A DNA stretch of 64,000 nt. Origin: a virus. Its lineage: Duplodnaviria > Caudoviricetes. Every line of letters begins with the position of its first letter. Positions within the stretch are counted from its first letter, which is position 1. Shown here piece after piece: positions 6,079 through 34,310 of this stretch. A program made the translations under genes and the position numbers. The notes beneath the pieces are model-generated. The model did not search any database and was not told the DNA's origin. It saw only the letters and a list, made by a program, of their open reading frames with translations. The stretch is taken from the IMG/VR virus record IMGVR_UViG_2926471356_000005, positions 16,798 through 80,797 of that record. One strand, given 5' to 3'.

Positions 6079-6215
6079 TAAACACGTTGCGCCGTGTATA
6101 AATAGCCAGTTAAGGCGCAAGCGTCCCGGCACTTTGCCGGGGGTCTGGAAAGTGTAGGCTTTCAAACCTGCACCACAGAAAAAGAACCGATAAATAGCAA
6201 AATGCACAAAGGAGG

Positions 6216-31042: not shown

Positions 31043-31519
31043 AGAAAATCCCCCTTTCTTTCGCAAACATATAATACAGTCTATGAATAGCAGCAAGTCC
31101 ACTATTCAATAAAACAAAGGCTTTAATCGGACGGTTATTAGCATAACCTCATGGGAATTTCACCCCGGCATGGTTCTCATGCAGCCCTACCCATTGCCTG
31201 CGACGCTCTTAACGCTCGGACTGTGGCTGTAAGGAAGTATCATTGTATATTCTGCGTGTCGTCGCCCGCAAGCCGCTACACTTGCTTTCCGGCGCGGTGT
31301 TGGTCGCTCGGCTGTCCGGGCGGGGATAACCTCACCCGGATAGCGTCATGGCGCACCCGCCGTATGGCTCGGCGCAAAAGGAACGTATCCGATTTGCCCT
31401 ATGCTGCGCCGCCGTTATCTTGCGCCGCTTTCTTTGTCAAGGTTCAGAATGGCTTTGCTGCCGCGTCAGCAGCGGAACGGAAAAGGGGGAGAGAGAAAGC
31501 GTCCCGCCGCCGCTGCGGT

Positions 31520-32201: not shown

Positions 32202-32657
32202 ATTCTCACCTCCTTTCTCGTTGGAAAGTTGGTGGTGCTTCCCCCTTTTCGCGGGGCAATACGGCGGTTTTCAAAAACGCCGAAGATTTTTTGAAATTTC
32301 TTCAAAAAATTTTTTGAGCAGCAAAATGCGCCTGTCCGAAAAGCCCGGACAGGCGCATTGGTATTGTGAGTAGTATTTAGATGATTAGACAGTTCATATA
32401 TACAAGCGTAATTTCCCCCGGTGGTGGTCGGGCTTTTTTTGATGTGTCAATGACCGTCGGATTTTGTCGATATGGTATGTGCTTCATGGCGGCTACCTCC
32501 TTTAGCCGCCGCTTTTAACAGTGATACCGCGTCATTTCTTGAGAAGATAAAAAGAAACGGCGGCTTTGATTTTTCAAAGCTGCTGCGGAAATCAAAGAAC
32601 GACAAGCAACAGTTCTGATTTTGCTCCAATATGGTTATTGGGGGCACAAATTAAATC

Positions 32658-32706
32658 AAAAAAGAGCCGATAACAGCAGTATTTCAAACTGCATATTATC
32701 GGCTCT
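32658..32706 (-). terminator. Terminator after the RlmN/Cfr-like gene
   Basis: AGAGCCGATAA...TTATCGGCTCT then TTTTT. Confidence 0.75.
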
Positions 32707-32736: not shown

Positions 32737-33726
32737 TTATTTTTGTTGTTTTTTGGCTTTATTATATGTATTAGCTAACTGTCCACAAGCTGCTTTAATC
32801 TCTCTACCATGAGAAACTCTCATGGTAACTTCAAGTCCTGTTTGCTCTAATTGATGTTTGAACGCAACCATTTCTTGTTTTTGTGGTGCTCTAATTTTTG
32901 AATTACTCGTCGGGTTGTATTGCAGCACGTTAATCATAACATTTTTGCCCTTAAACCATTTTGCAAGTTGCCTTATATCTGAGGAACGGTCATTTATACC
33001 TGGTAAAAGCAAATACGCAAATACCACTTTTCGATTATGCCTTTGTGAATAGGACAATGCTTGCTTAACAACATCTTCAATAGCGTACATGTGCATATGA
33101 GGAATGATACAGTTTCTCACAGCCTGTGTTGCTGCATGTAAAGATATTGTCAACTGAATTTTTAGATGTTCTTCGCGCAATTTTTTTAATTGATTAACTG
33201 GACCAACTGTTGATATGGTAATGCCGTCGGTTGGAAAGTTAAGTCCATTTCTATCTCGAAGAATATGGATTGCTGCAATCAAGTTGTCGTAATTGAATAA
33301 AGGTTCTCCCATTCCCATAAAAACGATACGATTTACTTTTTGACGTATCAATATGACCTGCTGCACAATTTCAGACGGTGTTAGATTACGAACGAAACCA
33401 TTGCGTCCGGACTCACAAAAAATACAGCCAACAGAACAACCAACTTGCGTACTTACGCAAACAGTCCCACCATCTCGCCGTTTAATAAAAACCGTTTCGA
33501 TATACCTGTTGTCTTTCAATTCATAAACATACTTTTCAGTATCGCTACTTTTATAGACTTTTTTTGTTGATATTGATAGATTTTTTTTGTGAAATGGCTG
33601 TTTATACAATTTCGCATATAAGGCTCTTGCTTTATCCTCTCCAATTACTTCCGACATTTCTTTGTAAGTAAATCCGTATGGGTCATTCAATATTTCCGTA
33701 GGTGTACTTTTAGGTAAGTGTTTCAT
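32737..33726 (-). CDS. RlmN/Cfr-family radical-SAM RNA methyltransferase (AT-rich cargo)
   Basis: IETV, CVSTQVGCSVGCIFC, RNLT, MGMGEPL, ISLH, AACGQL; both catalytic Cys present. Confidence 0.92.
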   Translation of the reverse strand: MKHLPKSTPTEILNDPYGFTYKEMSEVIGEDKARALYAKLYKQPFHKKNLSISTKKVYKSSDTEKYVYELKDNRYIETVFIKRRDGGTVCVSTQVGCSVGCIFCESGRNGFVRNLTPSEIVQQVILIRQKVNRIVFMGMGEPLFNYDNLIAAIHILRDRNGLNFPTDGITISTVGPVNQLKKLREEHLKIQLTISLHAATQAVRNCIIPHMHMYAIEDVVKQALSYSQRHNRKVVFAYLLLPGINDRSSDIRQLAKWFKGKNVMINVLQYNPTSNSKIRAPQKQEMVAFKHQLEQTGLEVTMRVSHGREIKAACGQLANTYNKAKKQQK

Positions 33727-33748
33727 TTAATATCCTTCCTTTTCAAAA

Positions 33749-33928
33749 TTAAAAAGTTTGTTTTTCAGAGTTTTTGATTATGATTTCTAATTTTTCAACA
33801 TCAACGATATGTGTTAATTTACATTTAGGGCAGAAAAGAGGAAAATTTCTTAATACCGTATTATAAAATACTTGAACCCTCGTCTTTCCGTTACAAATTG
33901 GACATTTTATCCAATATTTTTCAAGCAT
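33749..33928 (-). CDS. Cysteine-rich KTR protein
   Basis: WIKCPICNGKTR...NFPLFCPKCK. Confidence 0.9.
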   Translation of the reverse strand: MLEKYWIKCPICNGKTRVQVFYNTVLRNFPLFCPKCKLTHIVDVEKLEIIIKNSEKQTF

Positions 33929-33946
33929 AATATTTCTCCTTTTGCG

Positions 33947-33990
33947 CAAAAAAATACAGGTCAATTCTCAACATGAGCATTGACCTGCAT
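33947..33990 (-). terminator. Leader terminator just upstream of the KTR RBS
   Basis: CAGGTCAAT...ATTGACCTG then TATTTTTTT. Confidence 0.75.
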
Positions 33991-34136
33991 TTATACATAT
34001 AACACTACAACAAAATTAAGGCATAGTTTTTATACTATGTCTATACATCGTTAGTTTTGTTGTATAGCATACGCAAAATAAGCATGACAAAAAAGCCCAT
34101 ATTGAAAATGGGAAAAATCTTTTTTAATTTCAATGC

Positions 34137-34163
34137 TTATCGAATACGCATGCTATGTAACAT
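34137..34163 (-). CDS. Leader peptide MLHSMRIR (ErmDL/MsrSAL-like)
   Basis: AAGGGGGG RBS 8 nt upstream; follows promoter TTGACA (34211-16)-17-TATAGT (34188-93). Confidence 0.75.
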   Translation of the reverse strand: MLHSMRIR

Positions 34164-34310
34164 AAACATTTCCCCCCTTTTAATAATACTATACAAAAAA
34201 AGCGGCTAGTTGTCAACATATACATATGAATTATTTTAGTCAACTGATAGAACAGTGTAGACATATCCAAGAGGAAAGGTGAACAGTAAAATGTAATAGG
34301 ATGAATAATT

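What the first reader, a model, noticed from the sequence alone, without database searches (positions are those of the whole stretch)
32737..34216. ErmDL-like leader and attenuator control an RlmN/Cfr-family gene: candidate inducible resistance determinant
Seen: promoter, strong RBS, uORF MLHSMRIR (34137-34163), a segment (34064-34075) able to pair with the HSMR codons, a CCCAT/ATGGG hairpin with U tract, further stems, and a terminator just before the KTR RBS. Known: ErmDL (MTHSMRLR...) and MsrSAL (MTASMRLK) stall at R/K-x-R/K motifs with macrolides; Cfr methylates A2503 C8 and has MGMGEAL, whereas RlmN has MGMGEPL as here. Inference: a divergent mobile rRNA methyltransferase induced by ribosome-targeting drugs, with unknown target.
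Basis: partly seen in the sequence, partly recalled or inferred. Interest (0 to 1): 0.8.

Follow-up and report, generated by a model that had tools for sequence, protein, structure and literature searches.

The report
Macrolide-sensing leader before an mrmA-like gene
A mobile element in this gut bacterium carries a close variant of mrmA, a ribosomal-RNA methylase gene reported in 2025 to give erythromycin resistance, and in front of it sits a drug-sensing RNA switch related to the one that controls the mef/msr(D) macrolide-resistance genes.

Summary

**The enzyme (32737-33726, minus strand, 329 aa).** It is neither a housekeeping RlmN nor a Cfr.
- It is 86% identical (280/327) to the gene type whose two ends match the published mrmA primers exactly.
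- It falls inside a well-supported MrmA clade that is separate from both RlmN and Cfr.
- MrmA (PMC11983580, 2025) raised the erythromycin MIC 512-fold in E. coli. Its target nucleotide is still unknown.

**The leader.** It is a divergent homologue of the experimentally characterised mef(E)/mel transcription attenuator (Rfam RF02862).
- The match is full-length, at 44.3 bits and E 1e-8. This is just under the gathering score; near-identical copies elsewhere pass it.
- The uORF peptide MLHSMRIR keeps Ser4, Met5 and Arg6-x-Arg8 of ErmDL.
- 14 of 41 pairs of the uORF-containing stem change on both sides relative to mef leaders.

**What may be new.** I found no paper that mentions this leader. The drug response itself is inferred. 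Static folding does not by itself open the terminator, unlike in mef leaders.

Earlier reports of this scan reached the same identification on other DNA (e1-2674794, e1-5887809).

**Verdict:** a known gene family and a known kind of switch, in a combination that appears undescribed.

The parts
34188..34216 (-). sigma-70-type promoter: TTGACA, 17 nt spacer, TATAGT
   Evidence: 11 of 12 consensus positions, the best of the 12 sites in the region. An RNA-library contig (run X1) begins at 34171, just downstream.
34137..34180 (-). ribosome-binding site (34180-34172) and leader ORF MLHSMRIR with its stop (34163-34137)
   Evidence: The same peptide is kept through two synonymous codon changes in the mrmA-type loci L036 and L005. 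It retains Ser4, Met5 and Arg6-x-Arg8, the residues shown to matter in ErmDL (PMC8298421).
34060..34163 (-). long stem-loop domain (equivalent to R1/R2 of the mef leader). The uORF codons pair with 34064-34075, and the domain encloses an A-run/U-run helix and the CCCAU/AUGGG hairpin (34112-34096).
   Evidence: Independent folds are superimposable on mef leaders. A covariance model built from 8 mef-type leaders only finds this stretch at 27.2 bits, E 8.5e-5. 14 of 41 pairs change on both sides.
34005..34055 (-). central hairpin (equivalent in position to R3/R4)
   Evidence: Minimum-energy folds. This is the least conserved part in the alignment with mef leaders.
33948..33992 (-). intrinsic terminator of the attenuator: 14+4 bp hairpin followed by U7
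   Evidence: -21.6 kcal/mol alone. It aligns with the R5/R6 terminator end of RF02862.
33947..34158 (-). full-length match to Rfam RF02862 (sRNA_1300, the mef/msr(D) leader)
   Evidence: 44.3 bits (gathering score 48.8), E 1e-8, model positions 1-231 of 231.
33749..33928 (-). Cys-rich KTR small zinc-ribbon protein, 59 aa, function unknown
   Evidence: PF14205, E 5.4e-21. It is 100% identical only in the two other genomes of the order sample that carry the ~98% identical enzyme gene; other KTR genes are 53% identical or less.
32737..33726 (-). mrmA-like radical-SAM rRNA methyltransferase, 329 aa
   Evidence: 86% identical to the mrmA-type gene of L036. Lies within the MrmA clade, SH-aLRT 99. 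RlmN model 273 bits against a cutoff of 290; Cfr models 190-197 bits against cutoffs of 468-550. The radical-SAM cysteines and the C-terminal Cys are kept.
32657..32706 (-). intrinsic terminator ending the operon
   Evidence: an 18-bp stem plus a U-run, z = -5.6 against shuffles.

Best explanation
This is a three-part operon on a Tn1549/CTn-like conjugative element: a leader, a small KTR gene, and an mrmA-like gene.

**The enzyme.** It is a variant allele of MrmA, a radical-SAM methyltransferase of the RlmN/Cfr superfamily. The prototype makes ribosomes resistant to 14-membered macrolides and streptogramin B. It presumably does so by C-methylating a 23S rRNA adenine other than A2503; this is the published authors' hypothesis and has not been shown.

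**The proposed switch.** The leader would work like the mef(E)/mel attenuator.
- Without drug, the 8-codon uORF is translated and released. The uORF then pairs with nt 89-100 in one long stem-loop, the downstream terminator forms, and transcription stops after about 215 nt.
- With a macrolide in the exit tunnel, the ribosome arrests on MLHSMRI with the Ile7 codon in the P site and Arg8 in the A site.
- The arrested ribosome holds the 5' arm. The weakened inner hairpin and A-run are then free to pair with the terminator: nt 55-69 with 186-200, and the A-run with the U-tract.
- RNA polymerase reads through into the KTR and mrmA-like genes.

**Shown here:** the anatomy, homology of the leader to the mef leader with compensatory changes, clade membership of the enzyme, mobility of the module, and the presence of a second, housekeeping RlmN in the same genome.

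**Taken from papers:** the resistance phenotype of MrmA, the mef attenuation mechanism, and the ErmDL arrest rules.

**Inferred:** drug-dependent arrest and read-through for this leader, and the same phenotype for this 86% allele.
For: **Enzyme**
- The best NCBIfam hit is RlmN at 273 bits, below its cutoff of 290. The Cfr models score 190-197 bits, far below cutoffs of 468-550.
- The same genome has a separate RlmN scoring 399.7 bits, only 38% identical to this protein.
- Identity is about 33% to Cfr, 34% to Cfr(C) and 32% to Cfr(D).
- In a 41-row tree, the 17 family rows form one clade (SH-aLRT 99), apart from the 3 Cfr rows (100) and the 21 RlmN rows.
- The gene-specific parts of both published mrmA primers match the start and end of the gene in L036, L037, L038 and L005 exactly. 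The window protein is 280/327 identical to the L036 type.
- MrmA phenotype (PMC11983580, passages read): erythromycin MIC rose from 2 to 512-1024, pristinamycin IA from 64-128 to 1024. Tylosin, clindamycin, linezolid, chloramphenicol and tiamulin were unchanged.

**Leader**
- Full-length RF02862 match, E 1e-8. Copies upstream of the same gene family score 50.1 (L034) and 49.5 (L036, L005), above the gathering score of 48.8.
- RF02862 corresponds to the mef(A) upstream region (PMC13613805). I confirmed this directly: a 132.7-bit match in G431 carries the uORF MTASMRLR, followed by a protein above the Mef(A) cutoff.
- A model built from 8 mef-type stem-loop domains only finds the window copy.
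- On that alignment, 93.7% of cells are paired and 14 of 41 pairs change on both sides. 0 of 500 shuffles reach this, and slid controls give 1-3 such pairs.
- The uORF peptide is identical in the 85%-identical L036 leader despite two synonymous changes.
- ErmDL arrest needs Ser4 (only Ala or Gly tolerated), Met5 and Arg6-x-Arg8, with codon 7 in the P site (PMC8298421). All of these residues are kept here.

**Mobility and expression**
- Copies at 98% identity or above occur in 3 of 301 genomes of the order, spread over two families, and in named genomes of different families.
- One RNA-library contig of 1419 nt spans 32753-34171, that is the leader, KTR gene and enzyme gene, and nothing beyond.
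Against: - The window copy of the leader is below Rfam's gathering score (44.3 against 48.8).
- With the first 33 nt masked to mimic a stalled ribosome, mef-type leaders give the anti-terminator as their minimum-energy fold. The window leader and the L036 leader keep the terminator. Their homologous anti-terminator costs a further 5.7 and 9.0 kcal/mol.
- No induction data exist for any mrmA leader. The MrmA paper's main text has no occurrence of 'leader' or 'attenuat', and it reports high-level resistance (above 256 mg/L) without mentioning induction.
- The X1 contig runs through the terminator, with no known drug exposure. Logan contigs cannot prove transcription or exclude DNA.
- I did not hold the sequence of WP_002584956.1 itself. 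Identity to MrmA rests on exact primer matches and on length.
- 86% identity does not guarantee the same phenotype.
- The alignment used for pair counts was fitted to the model's structure, which biases the counts toward that structure.
Confidence: 0.7

Rival explanations
1. The leader is a relic. The mrmA-like gene is expressed constitutively or leakily, and the hairpins no longer respond to drug.
For: - Static masked folding keeps the terminator in both mrmA-type leaders (+5.7 and +9.0 kcal/mol for the alternative fold), while mef leaders switch.
- An RNA-library contig crosses the terminator.
- Natural copies exist with a damaged leader: 5' truncated in L035, an insertion before the terminator in L151, and a 14-nt deletion at 34109 in run X4.
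- The Segatella copri copies lack the leader altogether.
Against: - The uORF peptide, ribosome-binding site, stem-loop and terminator are intact. They are conserved between leaders only 85% identical in sequence, with synonymous codon changes and compensatory pair changes.
- Damaged leaders are also the classic route to constitutive expression of inducible erm genes (stated in PMC4335068). Their existence therefore does not argue for a relic.
Confidence: 0.17
2. The terminated leader acts mainly as a trans-acting small RNA, as was proposed for E. faecium sRNA_1300, rather than as a cis switch.
For: sRNA_1300 is an abundant RNA of about 230 nt seen on Northern blots (PMC5593968). PMC13613805 suggests that such premature termination products may act in trans.
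Against: - For the mef leader, cis attenuation was shown by deletions and RNA-seq (PMC4335068).
- No target of sRNA_1300 is given in the passages I read.
- The two roles do not exclude each other.
Confidence: 0.06
3. The enzyme is an ordinary second copy of RlmN (m2A2503 in rRNA, m2A37 in tRNA) with no resistance role.
For: RefSeq names near-identical proteins RlmN. TIGR00048 is the best-scoring model. The catalytic cysteines and MGMGEPL are RlmN-like.
Against: - It scores below the RlmN cutoff.
- The genome already has an RlmN at 399.7 bits.
- It lies in a separate clade.
- The N-terminal 40-60 residues do not align to RlmN models.
- The 86%-identical MrmA gives a 512-fold rise in erythromycin MIC.
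- It sits behind a macrolide-type leader on a mobile element.
Confidence: 0.04
4. The enzyme is a Cfr-type C8-A2503 methylase that gives the multidrug PhLOPSA phenotype.
For: It is mobile and lies in the same superfamily.
Against: - The Cfr models score 190-197 bits against cutoffs of 468-550.
- The Cfr rows form their own clade.
- MrmA did not change linezolid, chloramphenicol, clindamycin or tiamulin MICs.
Confidence: 0.03

Closest known systems
MrmA (macrolide resistance methyltransferase A) of Tn6105 in Tn6110/Tn7806, Clostridioides difficile RT176 (PMC11983580, 2025)
   Same: - Same clade of RlmN/Cfr-superfamily radical-SAM enzymes.
- 86% identity to the gene type that matches both mrmA primers.
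- Same length class (327-329 aa) and same divergent short N-terminus.
- Carried on mobile elements of Clostridia.
- The mrmA-type loci L036 and L005 have the same leader peptide and the same KTR gene in front.
   Different: - 47 of 327 residues differ.
- It sits on a different, larger conjugative element, with ArdA, topoisomerase III and a VirB4-like ATPase.
- This allele's cluster is the larger one in metagenomes: 2429 members against 1672.
- The paper's main text does not describe any leader. I could not see its supplements.
mef(E)/mel = mef(A)/msr(D) transcription attenuator, leader peptide MTASMRLR (PMC4335068, 2015); Rfam RF02862 'Enterococcus sRNA_1300'
   Same: - An 8-codon uORF ending in M-R-x-R directly before the stop codon.
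- The uORF is buried in a long stem-loop that encloses an A-run/U-run helix and a small hairpin.
- A central hairpin follows, then an intrinsic terminator.
- Full-length covariance-model match and compensatory changes.
   Different: - The peptide is MLHSMRIR.
- Nucleotide similarity is too low for blastn (one search found no mef plasmid).
- The window copy scores 44.3 bits, below the gathering score of 48.8.
- The downstream genes are KTR plus a methyltransferase, rather than an efflux pump and an ABC-F protein.
- The terminator is stronger (-21.6 against -14.7 to -17.6 kcal/mol), and the anti-terminator is not the minimum-energy fold under a static mask.
ErmDL / Erm(K)L arrest peptides (MTHSMRLR...)
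   Same: His3-Ser4-Met5-Arg6-x-Arg8 is identical. ErmDL arrests with codon 7 in the P site (PMC8298421). erm(K) is also controlled by transcription attenuation (stated in PMC4335068).
   Different: Leu2 replaces Thr2 and Ile7 replaces Leu7. The uORF stops right after Arg8, whereas ErmDL has 14 codons. I tested no RNA homology to erm leaders.
RlmN and Cfr
   Same: Radical-SAM fold, CX3CX2C motif, and the two mechanistic cysteines (Cys90 and Cys314 here).
   Different: Identity is 32-41%. It scores below both families' cutoffs and lies in a separate clade. The reported phenotype of the family prototype (14-membered macrolides and streptogramin B) matches neither RlmN nor Cfr.

Membership tests
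MrmA | High identity to the prototype. The 80% amino-acid rule for one MLS resistance-gene class is recalled from memory, not taken from a call. | tested here: met
   280/327 = 86% identity to the L036 gene. That gene's first and last codons match both published mrmA primers exactly. The accession WP_002584956.1 itself was not available to me.
MrmA | Forms a lineage distinct from RlmN and Cfr | tested here: met
   the 17 family rows form one clade (SH-aLRT 99) and the Cfr rows a separate clade (100). This was a quick IQ-TREE search with no bootstrap. The sister row, L040, is on a long branch.
MrmA | Radical-SAM cluster motif and the two catalytic cysteines of the RlmN/Cfr mechanism | tested here: met
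   C90, C97-x3-C101-x2-C104 and C314 are invariant in the 15-sequence family alignment and align to RlmN and Cfr chains.
MrmA | Confers resistance to 14-membered macrolides and streptogramin B | not testable with these tools
   Shown only for the prototype, in an E. coli tolC deletion strain.
RlmN (TIGR00048) | Score at or above the curated cutoff of 290 bits | tested here: not met
   273 bits, aligned only from residue 43 onward. The genome's own RlmN scores 399.7 bits.
Cfr (NF000424, NF011024, TIGR04432) | Score at or above the curated cutoffs of 530, 468 and 550 bits | tested here: not met
   197.2, 194 and 190.5 bits.
RF02862 (mef/msr(D) leader, sRNA_1300) | Score at or above the gathering score of 48.8 bits | tested here: not met
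   The window copy scores 44.3 bits, E 1e-8, full length. Leaders of the same module elsewhere pass: 50.1 (L034) and 49.5 (L036, L005). L033 and L035 score 45.0.
RF02862 (mef/msr(D) leader, sRNA_1300) | uORF enclosed in a long stem-loop, supported by covariation | tested here: met
   93.7% of cells paired, 14 of 41 pairs changed on both sides, 0 of 500 shuffles as high, slid controls 1-3.
RF02862 (mef/msr(D) leader, sRNA_1300) | Intrinsic terminator before the first structural gene | tested here: met
   33992-33948.
RF02862 (mef/msr(D) leader, sRNA_1300) | Anti-terminator that forms when the uORF is occupied (dIR1/dIR2 of PMC4335068) | tested here: inconclusive
   A homologous alternative exists: nt 40-47 with the U-tract, and nt 55-69 with nt 186-200 (15 bp). 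It is 5.7 kcal/mol above the terminator-containing fold, whereas the difference is 0.0 in two mef leaders.
RF02862 (mef/msr(D) leader, sRNA_1300) | Induction by 14- and 15-membered macrolides | not testable with these tools
   No raw RNA reads were available. Run X23 laid 0 reads.
ErmDL-type +x+ arrest peptide | Ser/Ala/Gly at position 4, Met5 and Arg6-x-Arg8 at the same distance from the start | tested here: met
   MLHSMRIR checked against the rules read in PMC8298421.

The most novel reading that the evidence does not exclude
The mef-type leader may be a portable macrolide-sensing cassette that recombination has placed in front of three mechanistically unrelated resistance genes:
- a Mef efflux pump,
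- an Msr ABC-F ribosome-protection protein,
- here, a radical-SAM rRNA C-methylase.

On mrmA it would make this methylation drug-inducible. I know of no experimentally shown drug-inducible radical-SAM rRNA methylase (recalled, not searched).

The leader lesions seen in the wild would then be constitutive-expression mutants under selection. These are the 14-nt hairpin deletion, the insertion before the terminator, and the 5' truncation.
Probability: 0.5. Interest if true: 0.55.

Novelty: new member of a known kind. Interest (0 to 1): 0.4.

Why it matters
- **Misannotation.** RefSeq annotates mrmA-family genes as housekeeping RlmN. AMRFinderPlus did not report mrmA in the isolates studied (PMC12409861). 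No NCBIfam model reaches its cutoff on this protein.
- **A large reservoir.** This allele is common in metagenomes. Its 90% cluster has 2429 members, and the exact sequence was seen on at least 1000 contigs. It sits on a conjugative element shared between bacterial families. Gut commensals therefore hold a large, mostly unlabelled reservoir of a macrolide-resistance gene.
- **Phenotype.** If the leader works as proposed, resistance would be inducible. Phenotypic tests without pre-exposure could then underestimate it, and leader mutations could raise it.
- **A testable system.** It would also show one sensor RNA reused across efflux, ribosome protection and target modification. It gives a ready system for mapping MrmA's unknown target nucleotide.

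Tried and rejected

- **Is the KTR gene and its leader a general backbone regulator of these elements?** Rejected. 37 of 301 genomes have KTR genes, but 0 of the first 20 other-KTR loci of the 27 fetched (L120-L139; L140-L146 were not scanned) has an RF02862-like match at E <= 0.1. Those KTR genes lie next to varied cargo. MrmA alone was enough for resistance in E. coli.

- **Does the attenuator drive the element's sigma factor and recombinase, as the tet(M) leader does in Tn916 (recalled)?** Not favoured. A strong terminator follows the enzyme gene. Read-through is not excluded.

- **RNAalifold on a plain MAFFT alignment of 14 leaders.** It gave only 22 pairs and 1 compensatory pair. The 3' arm is shifted by 1-2 columns between the two leader types. 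I replaced this with a model-based alignment.

- **Static ribosome-mask folding as a test of anti-termination.** It reproduces the mef model but not a switch for mrmA-type leaders. I report this as evidence against.

- **An 8-bp complement between nt 27-34 and the terminator's 5' arm (-10.5 kcal/mol).** Set aside, because a ribosome arrested at codon 7 should cover those bases. This rests on recalled ribosome footprint sizes.

- **Context of the actinobacterial sister gene L040.** Uninformative.

- **Raw-read RNA run X23.** 0 reads laid, so it was no test.

- **blastn of the leader against plasmids.** It found only two records that carry the same leader (H41 and H42), and no mef plasmid.

- **Literature.** No paper in the library holds MLHSMRIR or HSMRIR. 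The searches found nothing on regulation of mrmA. The search for 'cysteine-rich KTR' found no paper using the term. The MrmA paper's Table S4 and Figures S4-S5 might annotate the leader or the KTR gene.
Full report
**Observation**

- A near-consensus promoter: TTGACA, 17 nt, TATAGT, at 34216-34188. It matches 11 of 12 positions and is the only site above 9/12 in the region.
- A strong ribosome-binding site.
- An 8-codon uORF, MLHSMRIR, at 34163-34137.
- A segment at 34064-34075 that pairs with the His-Ser-Met-Arg codons.
- A CCCAU/AUGGG hairpin with a U-run at 34112-34096.
- A central hairpin.
- A 14+4 bp terminator with U7 at 33992-33948, just before the ribosome-binding site of a 59-aa Cys-rich KTR gene (33928-33749; PF14205).
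- The 329-aa radical-SAM gene at 33726-32737.

The leader folds far better than shuffled sequence (z = -6.3). A second strong terminator at 32706-32657 closes the operon.

**The enzyme**

NCBIfam puts it closest to RlmN, but below that family's cutoff (273 bits against 290). It is far below the Cfr cutoffs (190-197 bits against 468-550).

The same genome has a proper RlmN elsewhere, scoring 399.7 bits. That protein is only 38% identical to this one.

Against plasmid records, identity is about 33% to Cfr, 34% to Cfr(C) and 32% to Cfr(D). One 98.8% hit is annotated rlmN and sits in the same gene neighbourhood.

In the 5.8-billion-protein collection the protein heads a tight family:
- 2429 members in its own 90% cluster;
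- further clusters down to about 62% identity.

The family alignment keeps the radical-SAM cysteines, Cys90 and Cys314. These also align to solved RlmN and Cfr chains.

Among one genome per species, only 7 of the best 80 loci are 72% identical or more.

A 41-row tree was built from 17 family rows, 3 Cfr rows and 21 RlmN rows (quick search, SH-aLRT only). The family forms one clade (99), separate from Cfr (100). An actinobacterial MAG gene on a long branch is its sister.

**Literature on the enzyme**

A full-text search led to PMC11983580 (Emerg Microbes Infect 2025; I read passages).
- It describes MrmA, an 'RlmN-type' methyltransferase on Tn6105 within Tn6110/Tn7806 of C. difficile RT176.
- Expressed in an E. 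coli tolC deletion strain, it raised the erythromycin MIC from 2 to 512-1024 and pristinamycin IA from 64-128 to 1024.
- Tylosin, clindamycin, tiamulin, chloramphenicol and linezolid MICs were unchanged.
- The methylated nucleotide is unknown.

The gene-specific parts of both cloning primers match the first and last codons of the gene in L036, L037, L038 and L005 exactly, but not the window gene. The window protein is 280/327 (86%) identical to that type. It is therefore a variant allele of mrmA.

A second paper (PMC12409861, passages read) links mrmA to erythromycin MICs above 256 in RT955 isolates. It notes that AMRFinderPlus did not report the gene.

**The leader**

Rfam gives a full-length match to RF02862, 'Enterococcus sRNA_1300', at 33947-34158. 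The score is 44.3 bits against a gathering score of 48.8, with E 1e-8.

What RF02862 is:
- sRNA_1300 is an abundant 230-nt RNA from a genomic island of E. faecium Aus0004 (PMC5593968, passages read).
- PMC13613805 states that sequences upstream of Mef(A) match this family.
- I checked this directly. In a sample of 151 genomes of the class, 3 have a match, including this genome.
- The strongest match (132.7 bits) carries the uORF MTASMRLR, followed by a protein above the Mef(A) cutoff. The other carries MTHSVRLR, followed by a Mef(A)-like protein.

The mef(E)/mel leader was shown by deletions, reporters and RNA-seq to be a macrolide-responsive transcription attenuator. It has exactly this anatomy (PMC4335068, abstract and passages read).

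Leaders in front of the same enzyme family elsewhere score 50.1, 49.5, 49.5, 45.0 and 45.0 bits. These are 5 of the 7 loci scanned. The two loci without a match also lack the KTR gene.

A pattern scan of viral contigs found 21 loci.
- 16 carry MTASMRLR. Of these, 9 are followed by a Mef-like ORF (read by eye; L150 was confirmed), 1 by an Msr-family ABC-F protein (confirmed), and 6 are cut by the contig end.
- 5 carry MLHSMRIR. Of these, 4 are followed by the KTR gene and 1 is cut by the contig end.

**Conservation and covariation**

The L036/L005 leader is about 85% identical in sequence. It encodes the same peptide through two synonymous changes, TTA to TTG and CGA to AGA.

Independent folds of mrmA-type and mef-type leaders give the same nested architecture.

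A covariance model built from 8 mef-type stem-loop domains alone finds the window copy at 27.2 bits, E 8.5e-5. On the resulting alignment:
- 93.7% of cells are standard pairs;
- 14 of 41 pairs change on both sides;
- 0 of 500 shuffles reach this;
- slid controls give 1-3 such pairs.

Where the peptide differs (Thr-Ala-Ser against Leu-His-Ser), the partner strand differs in step. One caveat applies: the alignment is fitted to the model's structure.

**Arrest peptide**

PMC8298421 (passages read) shows that ErmDL (MTHSMRLR...) arrests with codon 7 in the P site. Arrest depends on Ser4 (only Ala or Gly tolerated), Met5 and Arg6-x-Arg8. MLHSMRIR keeps all of these residues.

**The switch**

This is the weak point of the mechanism.

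With the first 33 nt masked, two mef leaders adopt as their minimum-energy fold the published anti-attenuator, in which the A-run and inner hairpin pair with the terminator and U-tract. The window leader and the L036 leader keep the terminator under the same mask.

When the terminator's 5' arm is barred from pairing downstream, a homologous anti-terminator appears. It consists of nt 40-47 with the U-tract, plus a 15-bp helix between nt 55-69 and nt 186-200. It costs a further 5.7 kcal/mol in the window leader and 9.0 in the L036 leader.

Its 5' strand is transcribed long before the terminator's 3' arm, so a kinetic route is plausible. That remains inference.

**Expression and variants**

In one RNA library, a single 1419-nt contig covers 32753-34171. 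That is the predicted transcript from just after the promoter to the end of the enzyme gene, and nothing beyond. This is consistent with one transcript, but contigs cannot prove it. The only raw-read run laid no reads.

**Mobility**

The module lies between a divergent HTH gene with a MobC/relaxase region on one side and a sigma factor with a large serine recombinase on the other. Further on are an ArdA polyvalent protein, topoisomerase III, a CHAP protein and a VirB4-like ATPase.

Copies at 98% identity or above occur in 3 of 301 genomes of the order, spread over two families. They also occur in named genomes of several families.

**Verdict**

- The enzyme family has been known since 2025. 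This copy is a new, abundant allele of it.
- The leader is a divergent member of a known, experimentally studied attenuator family.
- I could not find the pairing of that leader with mrmA in print (supplements not seen).
- Two earlier reports of this scan on other DNA reached the same conclusions.

Interest is moderate. The finding bears on annotation, on surveillance and on how a drug sensor is reused across resistance mechanisms. It is not a new kind of system.

Noticed in passing
window 34096-34109 (as seen in RNA run X4): A variant contig in a metatranscriptome lacks 14 nt at 34109, inside the small CCCAU/AUGGG hairpin of the leader, and carries several substitutions. It may be a natural regulatory mutant.
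   Followed up: no
L151:491-980 (IMG/VR contig): An mrmA-type leader in which foreign sequence is inserted just before the terminator. The KTR gene starts about 210 nt further downstream than usual. This resembles the case in the earlier report e1-5887809.
   Followed up: partly
L035:3350-3570: In a MAG contig labelled Candidatus Aphodousia, the promoter, ribosome-binding site and first two uORF codons are replaced by unrelated sequence, with the junction inside the uORF. The rest of the leader, the KTR gene and the 98%-identical enzyme gene are intact.
   Followed up: no
L038:3560-4984 (Segatella copri): The mrmA-type gene lacks both the leader and the KTR gene. It is joined, via the last ~45 nt of the KTR region, behind the N-terminus of a protein-kinase-like ORF. 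Gene callers report a 418-aa fusion, seen on 75 contigs for one member. This suggests transfer into Bacteroidota with different expression signals.
   Followed up: partly
L039:3350-4960 (Candidatus Acutalibacter stercorigallinarum): A 72%-identical family member has no leader and no KTR gene. It sits directly after a high-GC gene in what looks like a chromosomal context. I read that gene by eye as a phosphatidyltransferase; this was not tested.
   Followed up: no
L152:1381-3217: An MTASMRLR leader is followed directly by an Msr-family ABC-F gene, with no mef gene between them.
   Followed up: partly
L139 and L141 (and other KTR loci, L120-L146): Cys-rich KTR genes recur at the edges of varied cargo. 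Examples are a position directly after a tetracycline ribosomal-protection-type gene (read by eye) and a position before ABC transporter genes. Their usual C-terminus...IKEPDAKTQ, is replaced in the window's KTR protein.
   Followed up: partly
window 31149-31246 (-): pemK RNA motif (RF02913, 60.1 bits), near the element's sigma-factor and recombinase end. The same motif appears in related elements L033, L036 and L005.
   Followed up: no
window 6082-6148 (+): Pistol ribozyme (RF02679, 58.8 bits) in the prophage-like part of the window.
   Followed up: no
L040:3836-5017 (Nitriliruptoraceae MAG): A 393-aa actinobacterial gene is the sister of the MrmA clade, on a long branch. It is 41% identical and its alignment reaches into the family's N-terminal region. 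Its gene neighbourhood was uninformative.
   Followed up: partly
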